Both the position numbers and the translations under genes were made by a program. The notes under the pieces are model-generated. The model was not told the DNA's origin and did not search any database. It saw only the letters and a program-made list of their open reading frames with translations. This document shows, one piece after another, positions 50,719 through 64,000 of a stretch of 64,000 bases of DNA; within the stretch, counting starts at the first letter, position 1; each line of letters opens with the position of its first letter. This stretch comes from Candidatus Saccharimonadota bacterium (GTDB taxonomy: Bacteria > Patescibacteriota > Saccharimonadia > Saccharimonadales > SZUA-47), in the NCBI GenBank assembly GCA_016700315.1, contig CP065013.1:321449-385448 (forward strand). The letters run 5' to 3'.

Positions 50719-53700
50719 ATGGTTAGAAATAAGTTATCGAGTATCTACCCACTGGTCGTATTTATAATACTTCTTTTGGCTAGTTCGATGCAGAGTATAT
50801 TGCTAGGCAATAGCCAAGCATTTGCTGCAACAAACCCAAAGGTACCTTGTACGACCTTCAGTAACGACAAGATTGTAGGAGATACTAAACTTGATTGGGT
50901 TGACAGGGCACATATCAGAGCCGTGATCGGTGGTGATGTAACGAATACCTTATTTTTCGAGGATGTAAACATCGATGACCAGGTAGACCAGTTCGAGGTT
51001 ATGAACTACGATGGCTGTTTTGGTCGGGTTAATCTTCCTGACCGTACCGGGCTTGTTTCTAACAAAGACAGCACTGCTATTCTTGATCTCGATTTTAAGG
51101 ATAACAACGACTCATCCTCGCAAAACACAGATCCTGGAAAAGTGAGCATTATCGTTGGATCAAGACAGAATTCTAAAATCCTTTACAGGTATACTGACAG
51201 CTCGCATATAACGTACGTTGCGAACGGGAAAGCAGATGGTGATCAGGTTGGGTGGGACGGTACGTTCACGCAAAGTACGTCAAACCCAAATTTGTTTTTG
51301 CAAGACAGAGATACAGCGGAAACCTGTCGTGATAGAATTTCTGTCCAGCCAGATGGTAGAGTAATATTTTACGCACTTTCTAAAGATGGGAGCGTCCCGT
51401 CGCCTCCTGATGCGCATGACCCGTCTTGTAAGGTTGGATATGTCAATAACAACATTACCCCTCCGGTAAGGTCCGATGGCTCTTTGGACACGACTGCATC
51501 GAGCATACCAATTGCTCCAGTGGATAATGGTAGTTCGTATGCTGGACTAGCCCCTTTACCAGGAGGAGTAGGTGATGCCTCTGCAACTGAGCCCTCTTGC
51601 GAAAGCGAGGGGGGGTCTTTTAGTTGGCTGATGTGTCCAGCGCTTGAGCTAGTTAGCGGCATTTTGAATTTTATCGACAGTCAACTAAATAGCCTGCTTA
51701 ACCTCCCAGATAGTTACTACAAGTGCCAACCTGATGGTTCTGGCTGTACCGTAAAAAATGCTTGGAGCCGCATGAGGAATCTAGCTTACATAATCTTGAT
51801 TCCGGTAATGCTAGTGATGGTAATAAGTACGGCACTAGGGTTTAAATTTGTAGATGCTTACACGGTCAAGCGAGCTATGCCTAGACTTCTGGCAGCAGTT
51901 ATATTTATTAGTCTTTCTTTGCCGATAGTCACAATTATGGCTGATATTGCAAATGGTGTCGGCAAAGGCATCATGGGGCTTATCTTGGGAGCCGTTACTG
52001 GCGATAACGCTAACAATATCACACTGGCCTCTCTTTTTGACCCAGGCTTAGGCGGTGACGGTTTATTGGCTGTAGGTATTGGAGGGGGAGGTTTACTTGT
52101 TGCCGGTCTAGCAGCAAGCACTATGGCAATAGGGTTGATAGGAGTTGTTTTGTTATTTGGTCTTTCGGCAGTTGCCTCAATAATCGTGCTGTTCTTTGTG
52201 ATGGCACTAAGACAAATGATTTTAGTTACTTTAATGATTCTTTCGCCTCTAGCAATATTAAGCTGGATATTCCCAGGCAACGACAAGTTGTGGAAAATTT
52301 GGAAAGAATCTTTTACTAAACTTCTGATGCTATACCCTATAGTGATGTTGCTAATCGCCTCCGGCAAGGCTTTTGCGTTCATTGTTGATGGTGTTTCTGA
52401 AAGCTCTTTCTTGAACCGCATTTTAGTATTAGTTGCATATATCGCTCCGTATTTCTTAATTAAAGGGACTTTTAAGTTGGCGGGCAGTACATTTGGCAAT
52501 CTAGCTGGGATGGTCAACGATCGCAGTAAAGGCTTTTTTGATAGGAATCGTAAAATGCGCTCTAAGCTTCTCGGCAACACAGCCTCTAAAGGCTGGAAGT
52601 CAATGAGAAACAATAAATTCCTCCCCGGCGGAGAAGGACATAATTTTTCTGAAAGACTCAATCACAGACTGGGCAGGCTAGCAAACATGGACGCCGCATT
52701 TGATGGAGGTATTAGAAAAGCACTCAATAAAGACTACAGGGCCAGCCAGATCGATGCAAGAGAGACCGAAAACAAGGCACACGAAATGGCCGAAATACTA
52801 AAAAAAGCAGGCCCACATATGAAACTTGACGACTTTTCGGGTCTCGCCTCAGCAGTTTCTGGCGAACTTTCCACCGAGGACCTCCGTGACCGCTTCCTCA
52901 AGATTTGGGGTGAAGGCAAGGTGAAAGGTTGGGAAAATCTAGTTGAATTCGAGATGCAAGACGGCAAATTCGTACTCGATGACAAAGGCAATAAAGTAGT
53001 AGCGAGAGACAAGCGAGGTATAGCAATAGCCAGTGCCCAAGGTAACCAGAGACTTACGAGCACTCTCGATAAAATATCTAGCATTCACCACGAAAAAGGA
53101 TCTACGGAAGCGATTCGGGAGGCTCTCGTTCAGGCTGAAACATTTGGAACAGATACTAAAGCACTTGACGAGTATGTTGCTTACTTCGATGCTCAGAAGC
53201 GTAAATACGACGAACAATCCCTTGAGATGGCCTATGTTCAAGCAGCTAACGAGGGTGGCACATACTATTCCAACGAAGAACACCTGCTAAGGGCTGCGGA
53301 AAAATCTACAAGGGGCAACTCCTCCTTACGGGCGCATATGGCAGCGACCCAGAGAGGTGTAGCAGTAAATGCTGGTAGAGCGGACTTGGGTGGAGGTGCC
53401 TTCGGAAGAACCTTTGCCCGTATGGCCGAGATTAGCGAACTTGATAGAGAAATACGCGAGACAGAGATAGAAGGTAACAGGAAGCTAAAAGCCGCCGTTG
53501 AGAGCGGAAACGAAGAGCAAATCAAGACAGTCAGAAACGAGAATGATAGAAAGATCAGGGAGCTACGAACAAGAAAGGACGAGAGAGCATTTAATTACGC
53601 AGATCATATGTATGAAAATTCTCCAGCATCAATCGCGCTCCATCATCAGATGAAAACCGGTTCAATGGGACTAAACTATATATCAACACTCATGAGAAGA

Positions 53701-54171
53701 CTTGACCAATCAAGGCAGGCAACAGTAGGCAAACGCGAAGATTCAATAGAATGGCAAAACTATGCTACCGAACTGGCCTTTGTGAAATCACTGCATGAAA
53801 CTGCTAGGAGCACTAAGCCAGAGCTAGCAAAACTATTAGGAAGAGCTCTTCAGACAAAGCTAACTCCGATAGATTACACTGCTACTGTCTATGACGAAAA
53901 AGTAGGTTTACCACCCCTAGACGGCACGCCAGCCAAAACAATTAGGGTGCCCAGGACGGAGCAGCGTCAAGCCTCTACTGTGCTTGAGCAGATGGCCTAC
54001 GTTGGCAGCGTGCCCGTTTTAGCTAAAACTATGGAAGCGATGCATATGGAGTATAACAGTACGATTCAGGCAGAGCTAAGAGGGCAGGCAGCAGCAGAAG
54101 AAATGGCCAGAAGAGGACAGCCCCCTGGTGGCACCCTAAACCAACAGCCTGGTGGCCCCAAACCTTTTTAG
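50719..54171 (+). CDS. VirB6/TrbL-like polytopic membrane protein with large N- and C-terminal extensions (1150 aa)
   Basis: Signal peptide and a ~320-aa extracytoplasmic region, then a ~250-aa block of 6 or more TM helices (aa ~350-600). A ~550-aa charged C-terminal region follows. It is divergent from the pilin operon. Confidence 0.6.
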   Translation: MVRNKLSSIYPLVVFIILLLASSMQSILLGNSQAFAATNPKVPCTTFSNDKIVGDTKLDWVDRAHIRAVIGGDVTNTLFFEDVNIDDQVDQFEVMNYDGCFGRVNLPDRTGLVSNKDSTAILDLDFKDNNDSSSQNTDPGKVSIIVGSRQNSKILYRYTDSSHITYVANGKADGDQVGWDGTFTQSTSNPNLFLQDRDTAETCRDRISVQPDGRVIFYALSKDGSVPSPPDAHDPSCKVGYVNNNITPPVRSDGSLDTTASSIPIAPVDNGSSYAGLAPLPGGVGDASATEPSCESEGGSFSWLMCPALELVSGILNFIDSQLNSLLNLPDSYYKCQPDGSGCTVKNAWSRMRNLAYIILIPVMLVMVISTALGFKFVDAYTVKRAMPRLLAAVIFISLSLPIVTIMADIANGVGKGIMGLILGAVTGDNANNITLASLFDPGLGGDGLLAVGIGGGGLLVAGLAASTMAIGLIGVVLLFGLSAVASIIVLFFVMALRQMILVTLMILSPLAILSWIFPGNDKLWKIWKESFTKLLMLYPIVMLLIASGKAFAFIVDGVSESSFLNRILVLVAYIAPYFLIKGTFKLAGSTFGNLAGMVNDRSKGFFDRNRKMRSKLLGNTASKGWKSMRNNKFLPGGEGHNFSERLNHRLGRLANMDAAFDGGIRKALNKDYRASQIDARETENKAHEMAEILKKAGPHMKLDDFSGLASAVSGELSTEDLRDRFLKIWGEGKVKGWENLVEFEMQDGKFVLDDKGNKVVARDKRGIAIASAQGNQRLTSTLDKISSIHHEKGSTEAIREALVQAETFGTDTKALDEYVAYFDAQKRKYDEQSLEMAYVQAANEGGTYYSNEEHLLRAAEKSTRGNSSLRAHMAATQRGVAVNAGRADLGGGAFGRTFARMAEISELDREIRETEIEGNRKLKAAVESGNEEQIKTVRNENDRKIRELRTRKDERAFNYADHMYENSPASIALHHQMKTGSMGLNYISTLMRRLDQSRQATVGKREDSIEWQNYATELAFVKSLHETARSTKPELAKLLGRALQTKLTPIDYTATVYDEKVGLPPLDGTPAKTIRVPRTEQRQASTVLEQMAYVGSVPVLAKTMEAMHMEYNSTIQAELRGQAAAEEMARRGQPPGGTLNQQPGGPKPF

Positions 54172-54191
54172 GAAATCGACTTTTGTAGTAA

Positions 54192-54974
54192 TTATATGAG
54201 AGATCTTATGTAATGGTCTTGAGACGGGTGCCCTGTATGGGTACTAACCTGAACCTTACCTTCATGATTTATAAGAGCTCTCAAAGCATACTTTTTGTCA
54301 GGGTAAAGTCTCGTGCCATACTGCAAAAAGACAGTAGATTGACTATCTCCACCATCTGACTGGTCAATAAAGCGATGTTTCTTATATGCGCGCAAGGCCT
54401 GCAATAATATATAGTCTGAAAAACTGAGCATGTTTTCTCCCTCAACTGCCCCATACATGTCTTCAAAATTAAACTTCATTTTTTGGGCGTTAGGCACAAT
54501 CTTATTTTCACCTGAATTCTTTGTTAGTTTGTGGCCAACAACTGTGCCGTTATCGATATTCTGACCTCCTGTACTACGCTTATTCAACAATTCGTTAGGG
54601 AAATAATCAAGAATATCTATACCCTCTAATGAAATTATCCCACCTATGTGTCTAAAAGCATTGTTGACTCGTTTAACTAAATCAATTGGCCCAAAACCAT
54701 CAACGAAGTTTATGGCTACTACTGGCTCAATACGCGTATACTTGTCTGCCTTGCTCGAAAATAGATCGTGAATCTGAGTTAGAATCTTCATGTAGTTTCG
54801 CTCTCGTTCTGCGGGGGGCATAAGTCCCGCTATAGTATAAACATTAACTATATTTCTTGCTTCGTCTGCAGGTTCTAATATGCCCGGGAAGGATTTCGGG
54901 TATCCAGCTTTATGCTGTGGTGGTAGCTTAGTTTCAGGGGTCAGAACTTTGCTTAGAACTATAGGGTTAGACAT
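54192..54974 (-). CDS. hypothetical protein (260 aa), opposite strand inside the T4SS locus
   Basis: ORF only. No TM, signal peptide or motif recognised. Confidence 0.5.
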   Translation of the reverse strand: MSNPIVLSKVLTPETKLPPQHKAGYPKSFPGILEPADEARNIVNVYTIAGLMPPAERERNYMKILTQIHDLFSSKADKYTRIEPVVAINFVDGFGPIDLVKRVNNAFRHIGGIISLEGIDILDYFPNELLNKRSTGGQNIDNGTVVGHKLTKNSGENKIVPNAQKMKFNFEDMYGAVEGENMLSFSDYILLQALRAYKKHRFIDQSDGGDSQSTVFLQYGTRLYPDKKYALRALINHEGKVQVSTHTGHPSQDHYIRSLI

Positions 54975-55097: not shown

Positions 55098-56378
55098 ATG
55101 GCTACTTATAAGGTGATCCAGGATATTGAGGCTGAGGATAAGTTAGTTGGCCCGCTGAGTTTGAAGCAATTTATCTTTGCCTTGATAGCAATTTTCCTTG
55201 GATTTTTGATATTTAAGTTGGCAATCGCGGAAGTCTTGGGCCTACTGCGTTGGCTATTTATAACTCTGCTGTTGCCGCCAACCTTACTTTTTGCGGTGCT
55301 GGCAGCTCCAATTGGTGGCGACCAATCGACCGAATTATGGCTATTAGCTAGGATAAGATTTATGCTAAAACCTCGAAAGCGGATATGGAACCAGGCTGGG
55401 CCAAAACAGCTGGTCACTATAACCGCACCAAAAAAGCTTGAAAGACGGCTTACAAAAAACTTTAGCCAAGACGAAGCCAGAAGCCGGCTAGGAGCTTTGG
55501 CTAATGTTATGGACAGCCGCGGCTGGGCAGTTAAGAACGTAAATGTTAATCTAAATGTAATGCAGAATGACGGTTATACCAGTGAAGATGACGACAGGCT
55601 GACTCCCGCCCTAGCAGTACCACAACAGGTGGAAATGGCCGACATATCTGCTGCCGACGACATCCTTGATGAATCAAACAACTCTACTGCGCAACATTTT
55701 GACGAACTGATCGATGAGAGTGAGCGGGAGCACCGCGATTTGCTACAAGAACAAATTGACCGCGCTCGATATGAAAAGCAGACAACCTCGTTGCCAGAGC
55801 CAAACGTACCAGAATCTGTCAACATGTGGTTCGAGGGTAAGGGCAGACAGCCAAACGTCGATCAAGGAACTAGCGAAAGGGTGGCAGTACCAAATGCACA
55901 CCCTAAAGAAGAAGAGACCTTAGAGTATGCGGATTTGCCCGACGTAAATTATGTGCATGGTGGTGGTGGCCAAACTATCACCCCAGGTACGGCAAGCGTT
56001 AGCTCTATAGCCGCAGCCGGTTCGACCTCTACAACAAACGATGCCGCTGACCCCTCTAGTCTCGACGAAAAGGAACTGCTAGAGAAGGTCCGGCAGAAGC
56101 AAACGCAATCGTCGCAAGCTAACACCTTCGGACATTTGAAACGACTTAAGCCATTACAGGGGAGCGGGGGTGACAGGGAGCAGAAAGAAGGGAACGAGGA
56201 ACGAGAAGTAGGTGACGGTGAGGAGCAAGATAAGCAAAAGCAGGATAGCCCCAAAAGCCCCAACCCTGTTATAATTAACATGTCCAAAGACAACGACAAA
56301 ACAGTGTCCACACTGGCACGCCAGGCCCGTGAAAATAAAACAGGCGACGGCGAAGTTGTTTTCCATATTGATCATTAG
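55098..56378 (+). CDS. PrgI/VirB3-like membrane protein with a long acidic, disordered C-terminal extension
   Basis: N-terminus YKVIQDIEAEDKLVGPLSLKQFIFALIAIFLGFLIF plus a second TM pair matches the PrgI-family opening pattern. The C-terminal ~300 aa are low-complexity. Confidence 0.5.
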   Translation: MATYKVIQDIEAEDKLVGPLSLKQFIFALIAIFLGFLIFKLAIAEVLGLLRWLFITLLLPPTLLFAVLAAPIGGDQSTELWLLARIRFMLKPRKRIWNQAGPKQLVTITAPKKLERRLTKNFSQDEARSRLGALANVMDSRGWAVKNVNVNLNVMQNDGYTSEDDDRLTPALAVPQQVEMADISAADDILDESNNSTAQHFDELIDESEREHRDLLQEQIDRARYEKQTTSLPEPNVPESVNMWFEGKGRQPNVDQGTSERVAVPNAHPKEEETLEYADLPDVNYVHGGGGQTITPGTASVSSIAAAGSTSTTNDAADPSSLDEKELLEKVRQKQTQSSQANTFGHLKRLKPLQGSGGDREQKEGNEEREVGDGEEQDKQKQDSPKSPNPVIINMSKDNDKTVSTLARQARENKTGDGEVVFHIDH

Positions 56379-56401: not shown

Positions 56402-57211
56402 ATGAATCCTAATAATTTTCGAACTGGTTCAGGAGCTAGCAACCAAGCCAATGTGATTGGCCCACAACAGTCAACAGCAAAAAATAACTCGAATAGCACC
56501 CAGAACACACTTCAAATTGCCGAAATTCGCGATGGAATTGTGATTATGAACGATGGCACTTACCGAGCGGTCTTAATGTGTAAGAGCATTAACTTCGATC
56601 TAATGAGTACCCAGGAACGCGAAGGCGTAGAGTACGCCTATCAAGGCTTTCTGAACTCGCTTTACTACCCGATTCAGATTTTCATCCGTAGCCAAAAAGT
56701 TGACTTAAGACCGTATCTAGAGAAGATGCAAAAAATACGCAGCGAGCATGACAACATGCTTTTGGCGCTCATGATGGAGGACTACATTTCCTACATGGCA
56801 TCTCTGGCCGACCAAGTTAATATCATGGATAAAAAGTTCTACGTGGTAGTACCCTTTATACCAACCGTTGACGCTCAGGCCATTGTCCAAGGTAGCAAGA
56901 ACTTTTTGAGTGGGCTATCTAGTACTTTCAACAAAAAAGAAAGCCATGTCACCATCAACGAAGCAGAGTTGCAAAAAGCCAAGGATGAGCTGAAAAACCG
57001 CGTCCAATCCGTCATGCAAGGTCTGATGCAATGTTCTGTGCAGAGTCTCCCGCTCGATACTCAAGAGCTAATAGAGCTTTTCTACGACTTTTATAACCCA
57101 GACACCGCTACAAGACAGCAGATAAAAAACTTTGATGATCTGAGCGTGCCTGTGATCACTAAAGGCCAGGGTCAAGCACCGCAACCGCAGTTGAATAGGA
57201 CTTTGCAGTAA
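56402..57211 (+). CDS. protein resembling the N-terminal domain of Gram-positive VirB4-type ATPases (269 aa)
   Basis: LQIAEIRDGIVIMNDGTYRAVLMCKSINFDLMSTQEREGVEYAYQGFLNSLYYPIQIFIRSQKVDL matches the opening domain pattern of Tn916 Orf16 / PrgJ-type VirB4 as I recall it. Its stop overlaps the start of the four-helix-bundle gene (TAATG). Confidence 0.45.
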   Translation: MNPNNFRTGSGASNQANVIGPQQSTAKNNSNSTQNTLQIAEIRDGIVIMNDGTYRAVLMCKSINFDLMSTQEREGVEYAYQGFLNSLYYPIQIFIRSQKVDLRPYLEKMQKIRSEHDNMLLALMMEDYISYMASLADQVNIMDKKFYVVVPFIPTVDAQAIVQGSKNFLSGLSSTFNKKESHVTINEAELQKAKDELKNRVQSVMQGLMQCSVQSLPLDTQELIELFYDFYNPDTATRQQIKNFDDLSVPVITKGQGQAPQPQLNRTLQ

Positions 57212-57669
57212 TGAACGAGGAACGAGGAACGAGGAACGAGGAGAATAACATAATTTCTTCCGTTTCGATTATCGGGAACGAGGAACGAGGAACGAGGAAC
57301 GACAGCAAGATTAAAACTTTCTTTGATTTGGATGCCTGGCAGGAGTCTCATAATCTGTGCCTGCTTTCCTACAAATTAACAAAAAGTTTTCCAAATGAGG
57401 AATTGTACGGCCTAACAAGCCAACTTAGACGAGCAGCGGTGTCCGTTACATCAAATATTGCTGAAGGATTTTCAAGAGAAAGCTACTCTTATAAATGTCA
57501 TTTTTATACTATGGCTCACACGTCTATATCTGAACTAATTTCGCAAGCATACTTAGCAAAAGATCTGACGTATATTAAGCCAGATGAGTTTGATTCATAT
57601 TATGAGCTAGCCCAAAAAGCTTATAAAATTCTTGGCGGCCTGATAAAAGCAACTAAGGAGCGAAAATGA
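57211..57669 (+). CDS. four-helix-bundle protein (23S rRNA intervening-sequence protein / Avd family)
   Basis: Hallmark LDAWQESHNLCLLSYKLTKSFPNEELYGLTSQLRRAAVSVTSNIAEGFSR...ELISQAYLAKDLTYI. The first ~30 codons are encoded by the heptamer arrays (NEERGTRNEE...NEERGTRND). Confidence 0.8.
   Translation: MNEERGTRNEENNIISSVSIIGNEERGTRNDSKIKTFFDLDAWQESHNLCLLSYKLTKSFPNEELYGLTSQLRRAAVSVTSNIAEGFSRESYSYKCHFYTMAHTSISELISQAYLAKDLTYIKPDEFDSYYELAQKAYKILGGLIKATKERK
57213..57303 (+). repeat. two in-phase heptamer arrays, (GAACGAG)x4 and (GAACGAG)x3 plus GAACGAC, at the left end of the four-helix-bundle cassette
   Basis: The arrays are at 57213-57240 and 57276-57303. Their offset is 63 nt, which is 9 x 7. 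Confidence 0.85.
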
Positions 57670-57710
57670 GCCTACGCAAACAAGAAATTATTTTTCCTAG
57701 CATTTTATCG

Positions 57711-57738
57711 TCGTTCATCGTTCATCGTTCATCGTTCT
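57711..57738 (-). repeat. heptamer array (TCGTTCA)x3 plus TCGTTCT at the right end of the cassette
   Basis: tcgttcatcgttcatcgttcatcgttct. The reverse complement is (TGAACGA)n, so the GAACGA core is inverted relative to the left arrays. Confidence 0.85.
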
Positions 57739-57766: not shown

Positions 57767-59698
57767 ATGTTTGGACGAAAGAAACAACAGCAGCTTGACC
57801 CAATTGCTCTAGCACAAGCCCAACGCGACAGAGAACAAGCCGAGGTCGCGGCGGCTTTCCAAAAAGGTATCACCGAGCTTCGAGACTTTATTGCTCCTGC
57901 CAGCCTAGAGTTCAAGTCTAGCAGTGTCCAAATTGGGACTAGATTAGCAAGAACATACTACGTTTACGGCTACCCCCGTAGTCTATACACTGGCTGGATG
58001 AGTGGCATGGTCAACATTGACGAGGTAATAGATTTATCCATCTATGTTTACCCTGTTGAGAGCCAGGTAGTGATGGAGAACTTGCGCAAAAAGGTCACCC
58101 AGCTTGAAGCCGGCCTAATGATCGATGCCGACAAGGGACGCGTGCGCGACCCTGCAAAACAGGCAGCAATCCAAGACGCTGAAGAAATGCGCGATAAGCT
58201 TCAGGTTGGCGAAGAGAAGTTCTTCCGACTAGGCTTCTACTTCACAATCTATGCTCGAGATGACGAGGAGCTAGAATTTGTCGCACATAAAGTTGAAAGC
58301 CTGCTTGGCCAGCAGCTTGTCTACAGCAAACCTTCTAGTGCACAGCAAGAGCAGGGGCTAAATTCCGTTGCTCCACAGTTTGTAGACCAGCTGCAAATAC
58401 GACGAAACATGAGCACCGGCGCCATAAGCACTTCCTTCCCTTTTACTAGCGCCGATTTGACCCAAGATAACGGTATACTTTACGGCATCAATATGCACAA
58501 CTCCGGCCTAGTGATATTTGATCGATTCTCGCTCGAAAACAGCAACTCGGTTGTCTTTGCAAAGTCTGGAGCTGGCAAAAGCTTCACCGTAAAGCTTGAG
58601 GCGCTGCGTAGTATGATGTTTGGTACTGAGATATTTATAATTGACCCAGAGAATGAATACCAGCGGATGTGTGAAGCCGTCGGCGGCGCCTATGTTCGCT
58701 TAAGCTTGAGCTCTTCAACCCGTATCAATCCGTTTGACCTACCGAGAGTCATAGACGCCGAAGACGGTGACAACCCCCTGCGTTCAAACCTCATTACGCT
58801 ACACGGTCTGCTGCGTTTGATGATGGGTGGCGCCCAAGCTCAGATGGCTGCCAGCCAAGGAGCGCAAGGCTCTGTCATGATGCCGGCTCTAGCACCAAGT
58901 GAAGAGGCCGACCTCGATGCTGCACTTATTGAAACCTACGCCAAGGCGGGCATCACCAACGACCCGCTAACGCACGGCTCTATGCCTCCTACAATCTCAG
59001 ATCTATATGAAACACTGCTTCACATGGGTGGCAACGGCCCGCAGCTAGCCCAACGCTTGCGTAAATACACCAGCGGAACCTTTGCTGGTATTTTTAGCCA
59101 GCAAAGCAACATCGATATCAACAATGCTATGGTCGTTTTTAACATTCGTGATCTTGAGGATGAGCTCCGCCCAGTCGCCATGTATATAGTTCTAAACTTC
59201 ATTTGGAACAAAACAAAAACCGACAAAAAACGGCGCATCTTGATCGTTGACGAAGCTTGGCAGCTGATGAAATATGAGGATTCAGCCAGTTTCTTGTTTA
59301 GCCTGGCCAAACGAGCTCGTAAATACAACCTTGGTATCACCACCATTACTCAGGACGTGGAAGATTTTATGGGCTCTCGTATGGGGCGGGCAATCGTTGC
59401 TAACGCCAGCATGCAGATTTTGCTCAAGCAATCGCCGTCAGCCGTTGATGTTTTGAGTGACGTTTTTAAGCTTACCAGCGAGGAAAAGAAACGTCTCAGC
59501 CAGTTCCCGGTAGGACAAGGCCTCTTCTTTGCTGGCCAAAATCACGTTCATATACAAATCGCCGCAAGCCCAACCGAACAAAGTCTCATCACCACCAATC
59601 CTGGCGACAACAGAACACAGCAGATCCAATTTTATGGCCAGGCTCAGGGTGATGTGAGCTTGGAAACGGCCAGCTCAGGGAGTGTGGAGCTAAGGTAA
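57767..59698 (+). CDS. virB4: VirB4-family type IV secretion ATPase (central and ATPase domains)
   Basis: FIAPASLEFKSSSVQIGTRLARTYYVYGYPRSLYTGWMSGMV, Walker A FAKSGAGKSF, Walker B RILIVDEAW, and GITTITQDVEDF. Confidence 0.85.
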   Translation: MFGRKKQQQLDPIALAQAQRDREQAEVAAAFQKGITELRDFIAPASLEFKSSSVQIGTRLARTYYVYGYPRSLYTGWMSGMVNIDEVIDLSIYVYPVESQVVMENLRKKVTQLEAGLMIDADKGRVRDPAKQAAIQDAEEMRDKLQVGEEKFFRLGFYFTIYARDDEELEFVAHKVESLLGQQLVYSKPSSAQQEQGLNSVAPQFVDQLQIRRNMSTGAISTSFPFTSADLTQDNGILYGINMHNSGLVIFDRFSLENSNSVVFAKSGAGKSFTVKLEALRSMMFGTEIFIIDPENEYQRMCEAVGGAYVRLSLSSSTRINPFDLPRVIDAEDGDNPLRSNLITLHGLLRLMMGGAQAQMAASQGAQGSVMMPALAPSEEADLDAALIETYAKAGITNDPLTHGSMPPTISDLYETLLHMGGNGPQLAQRLRKYTSGTFAGIFSQQSNIDINNAMVVFNIRDLEDELRPVAMYIVLNFIWNKTKTDKKRRILIVDEAWQLMKYEDSASFLFSLAKRARKYNLGITTITQDVEDFMGSRMGRAIVANASMQILLKQSPSAVDVLSDVFKLTSEEKKRLSQFPVGQGLFFAGQNHVHIQIAASPTEQSLITTNPGDNRTQQIQFYGQAQGDVSLETASSGSVELR

Positions 59699-59701: not shown

Positions 59702-62700
59702 ATGTCACCCCAACGATTGATCGACCCAGAAATAGACCCAAGCTGGTACAACGAAAGTGATGAGGCTGAGGCAACTCGCTTGGCCGAGCTTGACGCGCTG
59801 CAGGCTAGCTGGGATGCGGATAATGCCGAATACGACGAGGGCAATCCTCGTAACAAAGCCGAGCCAAGCGAAGATGAAGAAGATGACGACATTGAATCGT
59901 CAGAGCAAAACGCTGATACTGACGACGGCCAAACAACTGCCGACACAGCAGCCACAGACAACGAAGCTAGTAATAACCCAGAAATCCCGTACTCGGACAG
60001 CCCTAAGAAAAAAAGTATCATGTCAAAGCAACGAGCTGCGGTTGCCGCAGGTATTACTGCTGGCATAGCAAGCATCGTTATTGGGATTGTCATGCTATTG
60101 CCGCAGTTAATAGTTAATAACCTGCGTGAGTGGATTTTCCAAAAAACTGGGAAAATTCAAAGTAGCCAAGCTTTAAAGTATTCAAGACCACTACGTTTGA
60201 AAATGAGCGACGTATTCAATCGTGACGGTAGACGCGGTAAAAAAATAATAACGGAAATGAGCAAAAGAGGCTTCATTTTTAAATATGACTCCAAAGGAAA
60301 TATTGCGGAAATAATCGATCAAAGCGGTAATTCCGTAAAGGGAACGGCAATCGCTGGTACCATTGAGAAACACCTTGACGATGCACACCCGATAAAAAAT
60401 ATTGTATCAAAAAACTGGAAAACTAAAGGAATGAACGCCTTCTATACGAGGTTTGGCGTTAGTAGGGCATCCCCGGTTGAAGTTAAGGACGCGGCCGACT
60501 TACAAAATGTCGAGAAGACTATTAATAAGAATATCTCTAGAGGCGTCTTGCAAGGTGAGGCATCTGAGAATGTCATAAACAGCGCGCCCGTCGATGAAAA
60601 CGGAAATCCTGTGCAAGAATCGCCAGAGCAAATTAAGGCAAGGCAAGCGGCTCAGGCCGACGCAGCACAATTCGCTAAAGACAGTGGGCTAACAGGTCCC
60701 ATAAAAAGCGCTGCTCTAGATGGTGAGAATCTAGATAATTCAGCTATACCTTTGGCTAAAGCAATAGACGGCATAGAGTCTGCACCAACTAAAGAGGCGC
60801 TAGACGCAGTTAAAAACACTGTTGAATCTGGAAGTGTTTTAGGATTTTTGAAAAGCCTAACTTTGACTGGTACGGTGGATAAGTTTTGCACGGCACGCAA
60901 CCGACTAAATGGGGCCTCAATCGCTGGCAGAATAGTTAGGTCACTATCCTTAATCAGATATTCCTCCCTGTTCGTAGGAGCGGCAGACGGCGTAAGGACT
61001 GGGAAGTCCAACGCTAAGCTAGTAAAAGAGATGATGAAGCGGGTCATGGGGCGCGACAAAAACAATCGGCCATTTGGCGATTCTGAAGGTCTAAAAAGAG
61101 CTTTACTAAATAAATTTAGCAGAAGCCGCAACGACTCAACTAAGTCAAAAGTTAGTACAGATGGTGATCTGGGTGGAGTATTTGGTGTTCTCCAAAGCAA
61201 ATTCAACAATATTCCTGGATGCTCTATAGCCCAAAACCCTTTCGCTCAGATACTGGAGCCAGTCGCGCAGGTTGCCATTGCGGCCTTTACTGGTGGCGCC
61301 GGGGAAGCAGGAGTTCAAGCAGGGATCCAGGCGTCTAAAGAAGCGGTGGTTCTATACTTTAGGAATTTTTTACAGAATGTTATGACAAAACAGTTCGCAG
61401 TAAAGTTCTTAGCTTCAACCATAGCCAGTATTGGCATAAGCGAGATTATGTCACTAGTGCAGCTTTACGCAGAGAAAACAATGTATTTTAATTTTACTGG
61501 CCAGGAGCGAGGCGGGTCATTGGCAGACATAAATTTTGCTGGTGGAGGGGCCGCAAATAAAATGCGTTGGTTACAGGCTGGTTATGTGCCCGCAACTCCC
61601 GAACAGTATTCCCAGATCGAGACTGCATATCTAAACGAAAACGCACAAGATTTTAAAAAACTAGGATTCTTCCAAAGAATCTTCGATAGCGGCAATGAGA
61701 AATCCTTAGCCTACCAACTAGCTGCTAGAACTGTAATTAATACACCTGGTGGGACCGAGGGCCTGGCTATTTTACCAAGTAATCTTTTCAGAATGGCTAC
61801 GACTACGCTTAGAGCAGAACCTCTCGCCAACCTGGCATCAAATCTGGTCGGCGGTAAAGCCTACGCTGCTGCTGAGAATAGTGACAGTATTAGTTTTCTG
61901 GATTACAAAATAAGCAATCGAGATATACACCTGGCAACTGATCAAGCCGGTAACAATCTAGTCGTGATGAGAGATGACATTCGCTCGATACTAGAAGACC
62001 CTATTGCTAATCAGGACTTCTTGCTTAGTAATCAAAATGGGGGGCCCTACATCGATTCTGTTGGCTTTAAGCCAATTGGCGACTTCGCGGAACATGTAAA
62101 AAACTGCGTTACTAACCCAAATATAATTAGTGCGCTTGAGGCTCACGACCCGAGTGATCCTTCCCCAAAAACCGACTGTCTAGCCAACAGCCCACTAACC
62201 CAGAGGTTTAAGGCACACTTGGCCTGGCTGGACGCCCAAGACAGTTTCGACGCGGAGATCATACCCGAAGACATTGATACCGGTGCAGGCCCCTCTTTAG
62301 GCGGCAACTCGACTATTGTCGATTGTTCTGCGGCACGAGGTAACGGCAAAATAGTCTGTGCAGCGCAAGCATACAGTGGCATCCCTTACGCCCATGCCCG
62401 ACCAGGCTACGAAAACGCTTTAAGGGGTGGGGGCAATGCCGAGGCGTGGCTAGCGAAAAATAATAATGACCTAAACTTTATCCGCACAAATGCTTTCGTC
62501 GAATGTAGCGGCTTCGCCAACCTATCACTATGGATAGCCTACCAGTACAAGACTAAGAATGGTTGCTCTAAAGACTACGCTATGGGTACCGACCCAAATG
62601 TAACACCAGTTCTCTCGCCAGCAGCAGTAAGGGGCGGGCAAAAACTCTCAACCAGCATGCTTCAAGCTGGGGACTTCTTAACCATAAGTGAGAGCTGTAA

Positions 62701-62911
62701 CACTTCGGGCTCTCCAGGACATGTTGGCATATTCGTGAAAGACAACGGGAATGGCACATTTACTACTCTGGAGTCGTCTGGTGCAACAAATAGTGCTGGC
62801 AAAAAAGAGTCTGGGTTCTACATTCATCCTCTAAGTAAGTTGGGGGGTACTGGTGCTCACGACTATAAGTACGCCGGTCGATACATTGGGCCTGGTTCGG
62901 GGCCGCCATGA
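59702..62911 (+). CDS. T4SS-associated membrane-anchored cell-wall hydrolase (C-terminal NlpC/P60 domain), 1069 aa
   Basis: Acidic N-terminus, one TM (AAGITAGIASIVIGIVMLL), and a large ectodomain. The C-terminus carries the Cys motif FVECSGFANLSLW and His motif PGHVGIFV. Confidence 0.7.
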   Translation: MSPQRLIDPEIDPSWYNESDEAEATRLAELDALQASWDADNAEYDEGNPRNKAEPSEDEEDDDIESSEQNADTDDGQTTADTAATDNEASNNPEIPYSDSPKKKSIMSKQRAAVAAGITAGIASIVIGIVMLLPQLIVNNLREWIFQKTGKIQSSQALKYSRPLRLKMSDVFNRDGRRGKKIITEMSKRGFIFKYDSKGNIAEIIDQSGNSVKGTAIAGTIEKHLDDAHPIKNIVSKNWKTKGMNAFYTRFGVSRASPVEVKDAADLQNVEKTINKNISRGVLQGEASENVINSAPVDENGNPVQESPEQIKARQAAQADAAQFAKDSGLTGPIKSAALDGENLDNSAIPLAKAIDGIESAPTKEALDAVKNTVESGSVLGFLKSLTLTGTVDKFCTARNRLNGASIAGRIVRSLSLIRYSSLFVGAADGVRTGKSNAKLVKEMMKRVMGRDKNNRPFGDSEGLKRALLNKFSRSRNDSTKSKVSTDGDLGGVFGVLQSKFNNIPGCSIAQNPFAQILEPVAQVAIAAFTGGAGEAGVQAGIQASKEAVVLYFRNFLQNVMTKQFAVKFLASTIASIGISEIMSLVQLYAEKTMYFNFTGQERGGSLADINFAGGGAANKMRWLQAGYVPATPEQYSQIETAYLNENAQDFKKLGFFQRIFDSGNEKSLAYQLAARTVINTPGGTEGLAILPSNLFRMATTTLRAEPLANLASNLVGGKAYAAAENSDSISFLDYKISNRDIHLATDQAGNNLVVMRDDIRSILEDPIANQDFLLSNQNGGPYIDSVGFKPIGDFAEHVKNCVTNPNIISALEAHDPSDPSPKTDCLANSPLTQRFKAHLAWLDAQDSFDAEIIPEDIDTGAGPSLGGNSTIVDCSAARGNGKIVCAAQAYSGIPYAHARPGYENALRGGGNAEAWLAKNNNDLNFIRTNAFVECSGFANLSLWIAYQYKTKNGCSKDYAMGTDPNVTPVLSPAAVRGGQKLSTSMLQAGDFLTISESCNTSGSPGHVGIFVKDNGNGTFTTLESSGATNSAGKKESGFYIHPLSKLGGTGAHDYKYAGRYIGPGSGPP

Positions 62912-63468
62912 TGAGCAGAAAAAAAATACTTTCCCTACTAATATTGGTTCCTGCGGTTGCTTGTTTGGGAGTGTTTATTGTCAAGAAGTCAAGCACCGGT
63001 GAGGTTGTTTTTCAAGTTGACGATAATGTTTCAGGTTTTGTTCTTGATAATCACCTATATGATAAAAACAACAAAAATTTTAAGCTAGAAAAGGGTCTTC
63101 ATACCGTTAAAGCAGTTGGCCCCTTGGTCTCGGCTACACAGCAAACTTTTGAGGTTAGGCCCTTCAAAAAACAGACTGTTGAGTTAAGGTCAAAGTCGCT
63201 TGAAGCGTCAGAACTAGCCAAAGAGCTTTTCGGGGCATCGGACATATTTACTATCGGTTCAGTAAAGATGACCAGTGACAAAAGTTGGCTAATTATAAGT
63301 GTTGTCATAAAAGACGGAGAGGGTGACGGAGATACCTTTATATACAACTTTAATGGACAAGGTTGGGAAGAGTATGCAAGTGGAACTAATTTCGATTTAG
63401 ATGGAGTAAGCGACGAGTCTTTACCTAGAGAGGTTTCAGACATTATCCAAGGGAGACAAAACCAATGA
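62908..63468 (+). CDS. hypothetical membrane-anchored protein (186 aa)
   Basis: N-terminal TM ILSLLILVPAVACLGVFIV. The start overlaps the upstream stop (ATGA). Confidence 0.45.
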   Translation: MMSRKKILSLLILVPAVACLGVFIVKKSSTGEVVFQVDDNVSGFVLDNHLYDKNNKNFKLEKGLHTVKAVGPLVSATQQTFEVRPFKKQTVELRSKSLEASELAKELFGASDIFTIGSVKMTSDKSWLIISVVIKDGEGDGDTFIYNFNGQGWEEYASGTNFDLDGVSDESLPREVSDIIQGRQNQ

Positions 63469-64000
63469 GAATTTTAGCAAGGAGACTCTTGGCGCTGGCG
63501 ATTGGCATAGCAGTAGTAATATCTTATGCTGCACCGGAGACAGCGCTGGCAATCCAAAGCGAAAACGACCCGCCTTGTACCGAAAAAAGACTGAGGGATC
63601 TGGGGGTATTAATCGTGAATTGTAATGGTAATATTACTTGCTCAAGTAGCACCGGGGCAATTGTGCCTACTGGCGGTGGTACGGGAGGTGCACTATATAT
63701 GATTGGCGACTCGATAACCGAGGGTTCTGTAAATGAGCTAAGGGTCGCTTTTAATGGTCGGGGCTTTACCCCAATAATAAACGGTAAAGCCAGTCGCCGT
63801 CTCAGCACAGGCAGTAGCGAGCTAGACGGTCAATCAGTGCTTGAGAAGGACCTGCAAGATCCCCAAATCCAAAATGCAAGCGTAGTTGTCGTGGAGTTAG
63901 GTACGAACAGTGGGCTAACAACAGGATCAGTTGAAAAAGCTATCGCGTCGATCAAAGCTAGTGCTACGAAGGCTAAAATCTTTTGGGTAAACCTAGGTGT
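63465..64000 (+). CDS. secreted SGNH/GDSL-family hydrolase; the C-terminus runs off the right window edge
   Basis: Own translation from ATG 63465 gives MRILARRLLALAIGIAVVISYAAPETALA... with block I YMIGDSITEG. The start overlaps the upstream stop. It is absent from the ORF track because it has no stop in the window. Confidence 0.65.
   Translation, partial: MRILARRLLALAIGIAVVISYAAPETALAIQSENDPPCTEKRLRDLGVLIVNCNGNITCSSSTGAIVPTGGGTGGALYMIGDSITEGSVNELRVAFNGRGFTPIINGKASRRLSTGSSELDGQSVLEKDLQDPQIQNASVVVVELGTNSGLTTGSVEKAIASIKASATKAKIFWVNLG

What the first reader, a model, noticed from the sequence alone, without database searches (positions are those of the whole stretch)
50719..64000. Gram-positive-type T4SS core combined with pilins, with no relaxase or coupling protein visible
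The + strand module encodes:
- a VirB6-like polytopic protein;
- a PrgI/VirB3-like protein;
- a VirB4 ATPase (Walker A GAGKS, Walker B IVDEAW);
- a 1069-aa membrane-anchored NlpC/P60 hydrolase, the functional VirB1/PrgK/CwlT analogue;
- a small anchored protein;
- a secreted SGNH hydrolase.

That component set is characteristic of monoderm conjugation machines, which normally lack VirB2-type pilins, yet eight pilin-like genes sit divergently next to it. Inside the window I see no relaxase, VirD4/TcpA-type coupling ATPase, oriT-like repeat or integrase attached to the module. The locus could therefore serve something other than classical conjugation, such as DNA or protein exchange with a host cell or adhesion. 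The cluster continues past the right edge, so absence cannot be concluded.
Basis: partly seen in the sequence, partly recalled or inferred. Interest (0 to 1): 0.7.

Follow-up and report, generated by a model that had tools for sequence, protein, structure and literature searches.

The report
Saccharibacterial chromosomal type IV secretion system
This is the chromosomal, pilus-encoding, relaxase-less type IV secretion system that all Saccharibacteria (tiny bacteria living on other bacteria) carry next to their replication genes; it has been described in papers since 2023, so the locus is real and well read but not new.

Summary
Window 46677-64000 encodes eight VirB2-like pilins (PF18895) lying divergently to an extended VirB6-like protein, PrgI/VirB3, a split VirB4 (TrsD plus ATPase), a 1069-aa anchored protein ending in an NlpC/P60 domain, a small anchored protein and an SGNH-lysozyme.

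The right-edge question is answered. Contigs 98.6% identical to the window continue with the rest of the SGNH-lysozyme, a 486-aa protein, then recF, dnaN and dnaA on the other strand. No relaxase, coupling ATPase or integrase lies there, in the window, or in 40/40 related species.

The genome is a Candidatus Saccharimonadales chromosome. This combination (Gram-positive-type core, pilin array, no relaxase or coupling protein, next to dnaA) is already published (PMC10633639, PMC12102498, PMC12857230), where it is essential for epibiotic growth and its substrate is unknown.

What may be new is strain-level mosaicism. The engine genes are 96-99% identical between strains. The VirB6 ectodomain has at least four unrelated alleles. 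The protein after VirB4 carries interchangeable C-terminal enzyme domains.

Verdict: already known; moderate-low interest.

The parts
46677..47087 (-). pilin 1 (VirB2-like; the likely ATG start gives 136 aa; the mechanical ORF extends to 47165)
   Evidence: PF18895 T4SS_pilin 4.9e-13. NF045849 2e-7. The 136-aa form is the one called in relatives.
47229..47678 (-). pilin 2 (149 aa)
   Evidence: PF18895 3e-14 and TrbC 4e-6. The protein is identical in many metagenome contigs.
47737..48204 (-). pilin 3 (155 aa from the likely ATG)
   Evidence: PF18895 1.1e-13.
48215..48694 (-). pilin 4 (159 aa)
   Evidence: PF18895 1.6e-12.
48694..49083 (-). pilin 5 (129 aa)
   Evidence: PF18895 2.8e-8.
49086..49394 (-). 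pilin 6 (102 aa from the ATG used in relatives)
   Evidence: PF18895 8.4e-13. Called as 102 aa in L002 and L101-106.
49396..50031 (-). pilin 7 (211 aa, with a long Cys-rich N-terminal extension)
   Evidence: PF18895 1.9e-11.
50087..50608 (-). pilin 8 (173 aa), divergent, with a strain-variable N-terminal half
   Evidence: PF18895 is only 3.5e-3. The C-terminal hairpin is homologous to the other pilins. Identity between strain alleles is 44-58%.
50363..51586 (.). hypervariable cassette: the 5' part of pilin 8, the divergent promoter region, and the first ~290 codons of virB6 (ectodomain)
   Evidence: No DNA similarity to L002 or to the 98.6%-identical L093 across exactly this stretch. At least 4 unrelated ectodomain alleles occur among 7 same-species contigs.
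50719..54171 (+). extended VirB6/TrbL-like polytopic protein (1150 aa): signal peptide, ~290-aa ectodomain, ~7 TM core, ~570-aa C-terminal domain
   Evidence: TM prediction. AF2 model plus Foldseek: the six best PDB hits are all TrwI/VirB6. Precomputed PF19590 in 36/51 homologues. PF04610 weak in 5/40 family members. Present in 40/40 full-flank loci.
54192..54974 (-). accessory 260-aa ORF of unknown function, in the variable slot between virB6 and prgI
   Evidence: No Pfam or NCBIfam hit. The best sigma70-like promoter of the region lies at 55008-54981. Present only in the window-type strains; other strains and species have nothing or unrelated genes here.
55098..56378 (+). PrgI/VirB3-like protein (426 aa) with TM helices at residues 25-69 and a long acidic tail
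   Evidence: PF12666 3e-10, 40.9 bits against a cutoff of 27. Present in 40/40 loci.
56402..57211 (+). TrsD (269 aa), the detached N-terminal domain of VirB4
   Evidence: NF045971 profile positions 2-104 (1.6e-6) and NF041427 TrsD 2e-5, both far below their curated cutoffs (325 and 200 bits). PF26593 TraC-like in relatives. Present in 40/40 loci at a median 68% identity.
57211..57735 (+). inserted four-helix-bundle (23S_rRNA_IVP) gene cassette bounded by inverted tandem heptamers; not a T4SS part
   Evidence: PF05635 9e-34 and TIGR02436 1e-32. Absent from L002. Repeats found. Long-range stem in the RNA fold.
57767..59698 (+). VirB4 ATPase (643 aa), MPF_FATA / CD1110 type
   Evidence: NF045971 1e-105, 354.6 bits against a cutoff of 325, profile positions 179-732. 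PF19044 1e-26. 79-86% identity (best segment) in the 80 best loci kept, out of 583 confirmed relatives among GTDB species genomes.
59702..62911 (+). anchored 1069-aa protein: acidic N-tail, one TM (residues 122-138), a conserved ~750-aa module, and a C-terminal NlpC/P60 domain (residues ~850-1069)
   Evidence: TM. N-module found in 80 of the loci held, almost always directly after virB4. C-domain profile against PDB: NlpC/P60 at 5e-7, with Cys and His invariant.
62908..63468 (+). 186-aa N-terminally anchored protein of unknown fold
   Evidence: TM at residues 9-25. No family hit. 22% identical to the L002 counterpart.
63465..64000 (+). 5' part of a secreted SGNH-like plus phage-tail-lysozyme protein (434 aa in near-identical contigs)
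   Evidence: PF13472 3e-4, weak. Full-length L094 copy: Phage_lysozyme2 7e-29 and phi29 gp13 4e-9.

Best explanation
The locus is the core-chromosomal, non-conjugative type IV secretion system of Saccharibacteria (Patescibacteria). It derives from the monoderm MPF_FATA conjugation machinery.

Shown here:
- The gene set: eight VirB2-like pilins, an extended VirB6, PrgI/VirB3, a split VirB4 (TrsD plus ATPase), an anchored protein with an NlpC/P60 end, and an SGNH-lysozyme.
- Its fixed position between housekeeping genes and recF-dnaN-dnaA.
- The lack of any relaxase, coupling ATPase or integrase in or beside it.
- Purifying selection on the engine genes.

Inferred mechanism: VirB4 with TrsD, docked on PrgI and the VirB6 channel, powers assembly of a pilin-based tube or conduit through the epibiont's own wall. 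The anchored and secreted peptidoglycan hydrolases open that wall, and possibly the host's wall, at the contact site. The conduit then carries macromolecules between epibiont and host bacterium. Whether that means effectors going out or host material coming in is unknown. The strain-variable VirB6 ectodomain and the swappable enzyme domains are the parts most likely to face the host and set host specificity.
For: Component identities.

Taxon: all the best VirB4 relatives are Saccharimonadales/Saccharibacteria MAGs (79-86% identity in the 80 best loci), and 583 candidate stretches were confirmed as relatives.

Synteny: 40/40 full-flank loci have VirB6, PrgI, TrsD and VirB4 on one strand and recF and dnaN on the other, 9-10 kb downstream.

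Right edge: L093-L095 are 98.6% identical to window 51587-64000. They continue with the 434-aa lysozyme protein, a 486-aa protein, recF, an IVP gene, dnaN and dnaA.

No conjugation genes:
- 100 ORFs lying between virB4 and recF (beyond the first gene after virB4), taken from the 40 species loci plus L002, are dominated by wall hydrolases: Phage_lysozyme2 28, M23 7, GDSL 7, NlpC/P60 5, CHAP 4, glucosaminidase 4, amidases and SLT.
- No T4CP or relaxase family appears among them.
- The rest of the window is housekeeping: rpoD, dnaG, argS, groEL, valS, a Mur ligase, tsaD.
- GC content is unremarkable.

Selection: compared with L002, VirB4 shows 16 nucleotide differences, all synonymous. Pilins 2-7 show 34 synonymous against 9 nonsynonymous codon changes.

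Literature:
- The same architecture, with essentiality by Tn-seq in Southlakia epibionticum (SEML1_0006-0019), is in PMC10633639.
- A phylum-wide survey reporting TrsD, PrgI, VirB6, VirB2 arrays of 2-11 genes, rarity of relaxases and proximity to dnaA is in PMC12102498.
- A review is in PMC12857230.
Against: - The function, the substrate and even the existence of a pilus have not been demonstrated in any Patescibacterium (PMC11665869).
- The VirB6 assignment rests on weak fold and profile signals: Foldseek E 0.1-0.6, and no hit in the current Pfam copy.
- No VirB8-like component was identified here.
- A coupling ATPase encoded elsewhere in the genome cannot be excluded from a 64-kb window. The 2025 survey found VirD4 homologues in many Patescibacteria, far from virB4.
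- Whether the hydrolases act on the host's wall rather than the cell's own wall is pure inference.
Confidence: 0.85

Rival explanations
1. An ordinary conjugative module (ICE or integrated plasmid) whose relaxase, coupling protein and integrase lie outside the window.
For: - The VirB4 belongs to a family named for conjugative transposons (CD1110).
- A tRNA cluster lies ~4 kb upstream, at 41198-42581.
- An IS200-like HUH transposase flanked by hairpins abuts the pilin array.
Against: - The downstream DNA in 98.6%-identical contigs ends in recF-dnaN-dnaA.
- The position is identical in 40/40 species.
- No integrase, relaxase or T4CP domain was found in the window or in 100 downstream ORFs of relatives.
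- The left flank is conserved housekeeping in all strains, and the Y1 transposase is an insertion polymorphism, present in only 2 of 6 strains that cover the site.
- There is no compositional anomaly.
Confidence: 0.03
2. A ComB-like DNA-uptake (competence) or nucleic-acid import machine: the T4SS imports host DNA or RNA as a nucleotide source.
For: - It lacks a relaxase and T4CP, like H. pylori ComB (knowledge of that system).
- Patescibacteria cannot make nucleotides.
- Import has been proposed in PMC11665869.
- Host RNA feeding with T4SS-like tubes has been proposed in bioRxiv 10.64898/2026.06.21.733656.
- 3/42 post-virB4 proteins carry an endonuclease/exonuclease/phosphatase domain.
Against: - Natural transformation in S. 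epibionticum depends on ComEC and type IV pili. Its loss is tolerated, while loss of the T4SS is not (PMC10633639 and PMC12857230).
- Nothing in the window (no nuclease or DNA-binding component) points to nucleic-acid handling.
- The direction of transport is untested.
Confidence: 0.25
3. An adhesion-only organelle: the pilins and the VirB6 ectodomain mediate attachment to the host, with no translocation through the channel.
For: - There are eight pilins.
- The VirB6 ectodomain is hypervariable, as expected for a receptor-binding part.
- Some VirB6 homologues carry Ig-like or adhesin-type domains (SdrD_B, fn3_3).
Against: - A full energised channel set (VirB4, TrsD, PrgI, VirB6) is conserved under strong purifying selection.
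- Saccharibacteria already use type IV pili and dedicated adhesins for attachment (PMC10633639).
- A battery of wall hydrolases is hard to explain by adhesion alone.
Confidence: 0.1
4. A decaying remnant of an anciently integrated conjugative element, with no current function.
For: The conjugation-specific genes have been lost. VirB4 is split in two, and a selfish cassette sits between the halves.
Against: - All ORFs are intact.
- VirB4 is 79-86% identical (best segment) in the 80 best related loci.
- Between-strain substitutions are all synonymous.
- The split TrsD/VirB4 arrangement is itself conserved in 40/40 species.
- The orthologous cluster is essential in S. epibionticum (PMC10633639).
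Confidence: 0.01

Closest known systems
T4SS of Southlakia epibionticum ML1 (SEML1_0006-0019) and the Patescibacteria-clade T4SS defined by Quinonero-Coronel et al. 2025
   Same: - A monoderm-type core (VirB4, TrsD, PrgI/VirB3, VirB6) with peptidase and lysozyme genes directly after virB4.
- An array of divergent VirB2-like pilins.
- No relaxase or coupling protein in the cluster.
- A chromosomal position beside dnaA/dnaN, in the class Saccharimonadia.
   Different: - There are eight pilins here, against six reported for ML1.
- This strain carries an extra four-helix-bundle cassette between trsD and virB4, and an antisense accessory gene between virB6 and prgI.
- Sequence similarity to the ML1 proteins was not measured, because that genome was not available to the tools.
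- Essentiality is known only for ML1.
MPF_FATA conjugation systems of Firmicutes (CTn2/CD1110 of C. difficile, Tn916/ICEBs1, pCF10 Prg, pGO1 Trs)
   Same: - VirB4 passes the curated CD1110-family cutoff.
- It has a TrsD-like N-domain protein as in pGO1, a PrgI-type VirB3, and a membrane-anchored NlpC/P60/CHAP hydrolase like PrgK, CwlT or Tn916 Orf14.
- There is no outer-membrane core.
   Different: - No relaxase, T4CP, oriT, integrase or replicon.
- Pilins are present.
- The VirB6 carries a large ectodomain and a C-terminal domain.
- It sits at a fixed core-chromosome location.
Mycoplasma ICE transfer module (Mbov_0395 pilin-like protein, Mbov_0397 VirB4)
   Same: All eight pilins have this pilin-like family as their best (for most, their only) NCBIfam match (E 9e-9 to 8e-3). 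VirB4 also matches Mbov_0397 (259 bits). Both belong to genome-reduced monoderm lineages.
   Different: - All these hits are below the curated cutoffs (40 and 590 bits).
- Mycoplasma ICEs are mobile, carry a DDE transposase and a T4CP, and lack wall hydrolases.
Diderm VirB/D4 (MPF_T) systems with VirB2 paralogue arrays (Bartonella, Anaplasma) and extended VirB6 (Rickettsiales)
   Same: - TrbC/VirB2-type pilins occur in tandem divergent copies.
- The VirB6 has large hydrophilic extensions.
- The system has a host-interaction role rather than a conjugative one.
   Different: - No VirB7, VirB9, VirB10 or VirB11 was detected.
- The envelope is monoderm.
- The target cell is a bacterium.

Membership tests
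Patescibacteria-clade T4SS (Wang 2023; Quinonero-Coronel 2025) | VirB4 of MPF_FATA ancestry | tested here: met
   NF045971 CD1110 family: 354.6 bits against a cutoff of 325. No phylogeny was run.
Patescibacteria-clade T4SS (Wang 2023; Quinonero-Coronel 2025) | TrsD (VirB4 N-domain-like) gene next to virB4 | tested here: met
   In ORF 56402-57211, residues 34-136 match NF045971 profile positions 2-104, and NF041427 TrsD scores 2e-5; both scores are far below the curated cutoffs, so the assignment also rests on position. Present in 40/40 loci.
Patescibacteria-clade T4SS (Wang 2023; Quinonero-Coronel 2025) | PrgI/VirB3 homologue | tested here: met
   PF12666: 40.9 bits against a cutoff of 27.
Patescibacteria-clade T4SS (Wang 2023; Quinonero-Coronel 2025) | VirB6 homologue near virB4 | tested here: inconclusive
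   - The topology fits.
- The six best Foldseek PDB hits are TrwI/VirB6, but at E 0.1-0.6.
- PF19590 is precomputed in 36/51 homologues, yet was not reproduced by the current Pfam scan.
- A profile search against PDB found nothing.
Patescibacteria-clade T4SS (Wang 2023; Quinonero-Coronel 2025) | Array of divergent VirB2-like pilins (PF18895/PF04956) beside the cluster | tested here: met
   Eight genes, seven of them above the PF18895 cutoff. Pairwise identity: mean 32%, range 14-65%.
Patescibacteria-clade T4SS (Wang 2023; Quinonero-Coronel 2025) | No relaxase and no coupling ATPase in the cluster | tested here: met
   Window ORFs. DNA beyond the edge, read from 98.6%-identical contigs. Relatives. 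The rest of the genome was not testable.
Patescibacteria-clade T4SS (Wang 2023; Quinonero-Coronel 2025) | Chromosomal location close to dnaA/dnaN | tested here: met
   L094 has recF, dnaN and dnaA 2.7-6.8 kb past the window end. recF and dnaN are present in 40/40 loci.
Patescibacteria-clade T4SS (Wang 2023; Quinonero-Coronel 2025) | Required for epibiotic growth | not testable with these tools
   Known only from Tn-seq in S. epibionticum (PMC10633639).
Classical conjugative MPF_FATA element (ICE or plasmid) | Relaxase (MOB) with oriT | tested here: not met
   No relaxase family in the window, in the extension or in relatives. The only HUH protein is an IS200-like transposase that is an insertion polymorphism.
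Classical conjugative MPF_FATA element (ICE or plasmid) | VirD4/TcpA coupling ATPase | tested here: not met
   None within the window or within 10 kb downstream. The remainder of the genome was not examined.
Classical conjugative MPF_FATA element (ICE or plasmid) | Integrase/excisionase or replicon; variable genomic location | tested here: not met
   No integrase was found. The location is the same in 40/40 species.
Diderm VirB/D4-type (MPF_T) T4SS | Outer-membrane core VirB7/VirB9/VirB10 and VirB11 ATPase | tested here: not met
   No such Pfam or NCBIfam hits in any ORF of the cluster.
NlpC/P60 papain-like peptidoglycan peptidases (C-terminal domain of the 1069-aa protein) | Catalytic Cys...His in the conserved NlpC/P60 core | tested here: met
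   The Cys (DCSG) and His (GHV) are invariant in 13 homologues. The profile hits NlpC/P60 structures at 5e-7 to 5e-3, aligned over both motifs. As a single sequence it scores only CHAP 7e-4, below cutoff.

The most novel reading that the evidence does not exclude
Within one Saccharimonadales species the T4SS is a fixed engine carrying exchangeable host-facing modules.

- Strains share identical or near-identical VirB4, TrsD, PrgI and pilins 1-7.
- Those same strains carry at least four mutually unrelated N-terminal ectodomains on VirB6. These swap together with the 5' half of the adjacent pilin-8 gene, as a 1.2-kb cassette at 50363-51586.
- The ectodomains reassort independently of two alleles of the VirB6 C-domain.
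- Across species, the protein encoded directly after virB4 keeps a ~750-aa scaffold but ends in different enzymes: VanY, M23, NlpC/P60-CHAP, M14, a beta-lactamase-like domain, alginate lyase, an EEP nuclease/phosphatase or a tyrosine phosphatase.

If these modules are host-range determinants (receptor binding plus enzymes matched to the host's envelope chemistry), the system would resemble a phage tail or a polymorphic-toxin delivery device more than a conjugation pore. I did not find this mosaicism described in the papers I read.
Probability: 0.4. Interest if true: 0.6.

Novelty: already known. Interest (0 to 1): 0.3.

Why it matters
The Patescibacterial T4SS is one of the few machines known to be essential for the epibiotic lifestyle of a huge, mostly uncultured bacterial radiation, and its substrate and direction of transport are still unknown. 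This window adds no new kind of system.

It does provide a clean, complete example from an environmental Saccharimonadales. It also provides population-level evidence about which parts are frozen (ATPase, PrgI, TrsD, most pilins) and which are swapped (the VirB6 ectodomain, the hydrolase 'warheads', the slot between virB6 and prgI). That tells experimenters where to look for host-specificity determinants.

Tried and rejected
- Exact-protein look-up of the 186-aa ORF found nothing.
- An exact 40-mer from the window end found nothing in JGI metagenomes.
- A protein search with the partial SGNH gave only relatives at 44% identity or less. The right edge was finally reached through P0052, a 99% homologue of the 1069-aa protein.
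- The search for homologous proteins with the C-terminal 220 aa returned nothing. The domain family was built from fetched loci with jackhmmer instead.
- Single-sequence PDB searches with the 1150-aa and 1069-aa proteins found nothing.
- A profile of the VirB6 family against PDB gave only noise.
- A profile of the post-virB4 family hit PDB only through the VanY-type C-domains of other members, so the conserved ~750-aa scaffold remains unassigned.
- The pilin AF2 model from the eight paralogues was of low confidence (pLDDT 62), and its fold search returned generic helical hairpins, so it is uninformative.
- I considered the IS200-like HUH protein at 45935-46558, with its flanking hairpins, as a non-canonical relaxase plus oriT. 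I rejected this because it is present in only some strains of the species.
- I considered the four-helix-bundle gene as a DGR Avd. I rejected this as a working idea because no reverse transcriptase is in the window, the Avd model scores only 18 bits against a cutoff of 80, and the variation seen is whole-cassette replacement rather than A-specific mutagenesis.
- Rfam found only five tRNAs.

Full report
**1. What is in the sequence**

ORF listing and translation show a divergent pair of gene blocks meeting at 50609-50718.

On the minus strand lie eight small genes (46677-50608).
- Each has a signal-peptide-like N-terminus and two C-terminal hydrophobic helices around a KY(I/V)TS.GD...AKN motif.
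- Seven pass the Pfam gathering score for PF18895 T4SS_pilin (E 3e-14 to 3e-8). Several also touch PF04956 TrbC/VirB2. The eighth, next to virB6, is weak (3.5e-3) but homologous over the hairpin.
- Pairwise identity averages 32% (range 14-65%). This matches the 'divergent VirB2 arrays' reported for this phylum.

On the plus strand:
- **50719-54171, 1150 aa.** Signal peptide, a ~290-aa ectodomain, about seven TM helices (residues 358-581) and a ~570-aa C-terminal domain.
- **54192-54974, minus strand.** A 260-aa ORF with no family.
- **55098-56378.** PrgI (PF12666, above cutoff).
- **56402-57211.** A 269-aa TrsD-like protein.
- **57211-57669.** A four-helix-bundle '23S rRNA IVS protein'.
- **57767-59698.** VirB4.
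- **59702-62911.** A 1069-aa single-pass protein.
- **62908-63468.** A 186-aa anchored protein.
- **63465 to the window end.** The start of a secreted SGNH-like protein.

**2.

*VirB4.* It exceeds the curated cutoff of NCBIfam NF045971, 'VirB4-like conjugal transfer ATPase, CD1110 family' (354.6 against 325 bits), but covers only profile positions 179-732. The 269-aa protein upstream matches positions 2-104 of the same profile, and also NF041427 TrsD, though both of those scores are far below the curated cutoffs. The ATPase therefore appears to be split into TrsD plus VirB4, as described for pGO1 and for Patescibacteria (PMC12102498).

*VirB6.* The evidence is indirect.
- No Pfam or NCBIfam hit for the window protein.
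- PF04610 TrbL hits only 5/40 family members, weakly.
- A family profile found nothing in PDB.
- 36 of 51 database homologues carry a precomputed PF19590 TrbL_3 hit.
- An AlphaFold model of the TM core, built on those homologues (pLDDT 78.8), has TrwI/VirB6 chains of the R388 T4SS as its six best PDB matches (prob 0.72-0.91, E 0.1-0.6, TM up to 0.45).

I accept 'VirB6-like' as probable on these signals, on topology and on invariant position (40/40 loci).

*NlpC/P60.* The call holds for residues ~850-1069 of the 1069-aa protein.
- Alone, the domain gives only CHAP 7e-4.
- An alignment of 13 homologous domains from related loci has an invariant Cys (DCSG) and His (GHV).
- As a profile it hits NlpC/P60 structures: 6b8c at 5e-7, then Spr/MepS, CwlO and the Tn916-like CTn-Orf16/17 hydrolases.

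*SGNH.* The call is weak (3e-4). Near-identical contigs show the full protein is 434 aa, with a C-terminal phage-tail lysozyme domain (PF18013 7e-29; phi29 gp13 4e-9).

**3. What lies beyond the right edge, and the context**

The 1069-aa protein has a 99% homologue (P0052). Its contigs L093-L095 align to window 51587-64000 at 98.55% identity over 12.4 kb. They continue in this order:
- the rest of the 434-aa SGNH-lysozyme;
- a 486-aa protein with no family;
- then, on the opposite strand, recF (354 aa), another four-helix-bundle gene, dnaN, a 79-aa ORF and dnaA.

A scan of GTDB species genomes with VirB4 gave 583 confirmed relatives. The best 80 are 79-86% identical (best segment), and nearly all are titled Candidatus Saccharimonadales or Saccharibacteria.

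In all 40 loci with full 10-kb flanks:
- VirB6, PrgI, TrsD and VirB4 lie on one strand, and recF and dnaN on the other, 9-10 kb downstream.
- The 4.7-8.7 kb between virB4 and recF holds one ~800-1700-aa protein plus 2-5 further ORFs.

Pfam scans of 100 of those further ORFs found cell-wall enzymes:

| Family | Members |
|---|---|
| Phage_lysozyme2 | 28 |
| Peptidase_M23 | 7 |
| GDSL | 7 |
| Peptidase_C39_2 | 5 |
| NlpC/P60 | 5 |
| glucosaminidase | 4 |
| CHAP | 4 |
| GH3 | 3 |

Amidase_2/3, M15_4, VanY and SLT also occurred. No coupling-protein, relaxase or integrase family appeared.

The remaining 46 kb of the window is housekeeping: rpoD, dnaG, argS, a glutamate dehydrogenase, groEL, PGI, a Mur ligase, tsaD, valS, ABC transporters, sortase and five tRNAs. 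GC content is even. Small ORFs read by eye include no recombinase. The left flank (Hsp20, a phosphoribosyltransferase, a HopA1-like protein, HIT, valS) is the same in every strain recovered.

This is not an ICE.

**4. It is a known system**

- Wang et al. 2023 (PMC10633639) describe the Southlakia epibionticum T4SS (SEML1_0006-0019). [quoted passage not shown] It is essential in Tn-seq.
- Quinonero-Coronel et al. 2025 (PMC12102498) survey the phylum. They report a monophyletic VirB4 clade sister to MPF_FATA, TrsD as the commonest partner, PrgI and VirB6, VirB2 arrays of 2-11 genes that are especially abundant in Saccharimonadia, relaxases in only ~100 genomes, VirD4 homologues usually far from virB4, and frequent proximity to dnaA/dnaN.
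- The 2025 FEMS review (PMC12857230) presents it as a new T4SS subtype.
- A PNAS perspective calls its role 'completely unknown' (PMC11665869).

The window is one more instance of this system.

**5. How it most likely works**

*Shown:* the parts list, their order, the absence of DNA-processing genes, the core-genome status, and purifying selection. Against L002, VirB4 has 16 nucleotide differences, all synonymous, and pilins 2-7 have 34 synonymous against 9 nonsynonymous codon changes.

*Inferred from established T4SS biology:*
- VirB4, with its detached N-domain TrsD, docks on PrgI/VirB3 and the VirB6 channel in the membrane.
- It drives extraction and polymerisation of the VirB2-like pilins.
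- The anchored NlpC/P60 protein and the secreted SGNH-lysozyme cut peptidoglycan so that the structure can cross the wall.
- The conduit connects the epibiont to its host bacterium.

The direction and the cargo are not known. I rate effector export and import of host macromolecules as roughly comparable. Classical conjugation, a pure adhesion role and a decaying remnant are all unlikely (see the rival explanations).

**6. What may go beyond the literature**

*(a) Mosaicism between strains.* Compared with L002, whose VirB4 protein is identical, the DNA is 96-99% identical over the pilins, prgI, trsD and virB4. Even at blastn sensitivity, no similarity is found in four stretches:
- 50363-51575;
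- 52543-55064;
- 57202-57766;
- 59971-64000.

*(b) VirB6 alleles.* Seven same-species contigs were found through the identical pilin-2 protein. Among them:
- the VirB6 N-terminal ectodomain, up to a conserved CES.GG motif, has four mutually unrelated alleles (20-24% global identity, which is noise);
- the TM core has two alleles (84-85% against 99-100%);
- the C-domain has two alleles (18-19% against 95-100%);
- the ectodomain reassorts independently of the other two;
- the neighbouring pilin 8 changes with the ectodomain.

*(c) The gene after virB4.* In 80 of the loci held it encodes a protein sharing a ~750-aa N-terminal module with the window's 1069-aa protein (jackhmmer). The 90-950-aa C-terminal extension differs. 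Pfam finds the following among 42 members:

| C-terminal domain | Members of 42 |
|---|---|
| VanY | 13 |
| Exo_endo_phos | 3 |
| M23 | 2 |
| alginate lyase | 1 |
| Y_phosphatase3 | 1 |
| CHAP | 1 |
| beta-lactamase2 | 1 |
| M14 | 1 |

The VanY domains map to the C-terminus. The window's own protein is itself a chimera: its N- and C-ends resemble L002, and its middle resembles L085. The NlpC/P60 domain also appears on second-position genes in other species.

*(d) The slot between virB6 and prgI.* It is empty in about half of the species and holds unrelated genes in the rest.

This pattern of frozen engine and swapped surface and enzyme modules is what one expects of host-range determinants. 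That reading is an inference, and I did not find the pattern described in the papers I read.

**7. Side observations**

- The four-helix-bundle cassette between trsD and virB4 is present in some strains only.
- It is bracketed by (GAACGAG)n and its inverted complement. These pair in the predicted RNA fold (z = -3.8).
- It is followed by a perfect 13-14-bp hairpin that buries the virB4 ribosome-binding site and start codon.
- All eight pilins give sub-threshold hits to the Mycoplasma ICE 'pilin-like' family NF045849. Pilin-like proteins may therefore not be foreign to the MPF_FATA lineage. PMC12102498 does not mention mycoplasmas.

**8. Verdict**

Novelty: already known. Interest is moderate-low for the finding as stated. 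The strain-level cassette structure is the part worth following up.

Noticed in passing
window 57211-57769: A four-helix-bundle / 23S_rRNA_IVP gene (PF05635 9e-34) sits exactly between the two halves of the split VirB4 (trsD and virB4). It is flanked by tandem heptamers (GAACGAG)x4 at 57213-57240 and 57276-57302, and by their inverted complement at 57708-57735. It is present in some strains and absent in others. The predicted RNA forms a long-range stem, followed by a perfect 13-14-bp hairpin (57740-57769) that covers the virB4 RBS and AUG. A second IVP gene lies between recF and dnaN in relatives.
   Followed up: partly
window 50363-51586: A 1.2-kb stretch covers the 5' part of pilin 8, the divergent promoter region and the VirB6 ectodomain. 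It has no DNA similarity even to a contig that is 98.6% identical on both sides. At least four unrelated ectodomain alleles occur in one species.
   Followed up: yes
window 42923-44095 (+): A 390-aa protein matches the HopA1 effector family (PF17914 2.2e-8, above cutoff), which is named after a Pseudomonas syringae type III effector. It lies about 2.6 kb from the pilin array and is conserved at this position in all strains recovered. It is a possible secreted effector candidate.
   Followed up: partly
window 45875-46636: An IS200-like Y1 (HUH) transposase gene (45935-46558) is bracketed by complementary palindromic hairpins, GTCAGACCCTGAC at 45875-45887 and GTCAGGGTCTGAC at 46624-46636. It abuts the last pilin gene. 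It is an insertion polymorphism, present in the window and L102 and absent in L101 and L103-L105.
   Followed up: yes
window 54192-55008 (-): A 260-aa ORF with no detectable family runs antisense inside the T4SS operon. Directly upstream is the best sigma70-like promoter of the region (TTGACA-16-TGnTAAAAT, 55008-54981). It occupies a slot that is empty or filled with unrelated genes in other strains and species.
   Followed up: partly
window 46677-50608: All eight pilins have the Mycoplasma ICE family NF045849 ('Mbov_0395 pilin-like conjugal transfer protein') as their best, and for most their only, NCBIfam match (E 9e-9 to 8e-3, below the 40-bit cutoff). VirB4 also matches the Mycoplasma ICE ATPase Mbov_0397 (259 bits, cutoff 590). 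This is a possible evolutionary link that the 2025 survey does not discuss.
   Followed up: partly
window ~35000-37000: The GC skew changes sign and gene orientation switches from mostly minus to mostly plus near 36 kb (the cumulative-skew minimum). That would be origin-like. Yet dnaA lies about 5-6 kb beyond the right end of the window, and the T4SS genes point towards it.
   Followed up: no
L096 1570-3064: In another metagenome, the gene for an identical pilin-7 protein is preceded by an IS1595-family DDE transposase instead of pilin 8 and virB6. Many contigs of this species break at the pilin 8/virB6 junction.
   Followed up: no
L002 3810-6806 and window 50719-54171: The precomputed annotation lists PF19590 TrbL_3 for VirB6 homologues, unmarked for L002. 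A fresh hmmscan against the current Pfam copy finds no family at E<=0.01 for the same proteins. This is a library-version discrepancy.
   Followed up: partly
window 41198-42581: A cluster of four tRNA genes (Ser-GCT, Arg-GCG, Ser-CGA, Ser-TGA) lies upstream of the HopA1-like gene. No integrase or repeat suggests an island boundary.
   Followed up: partly
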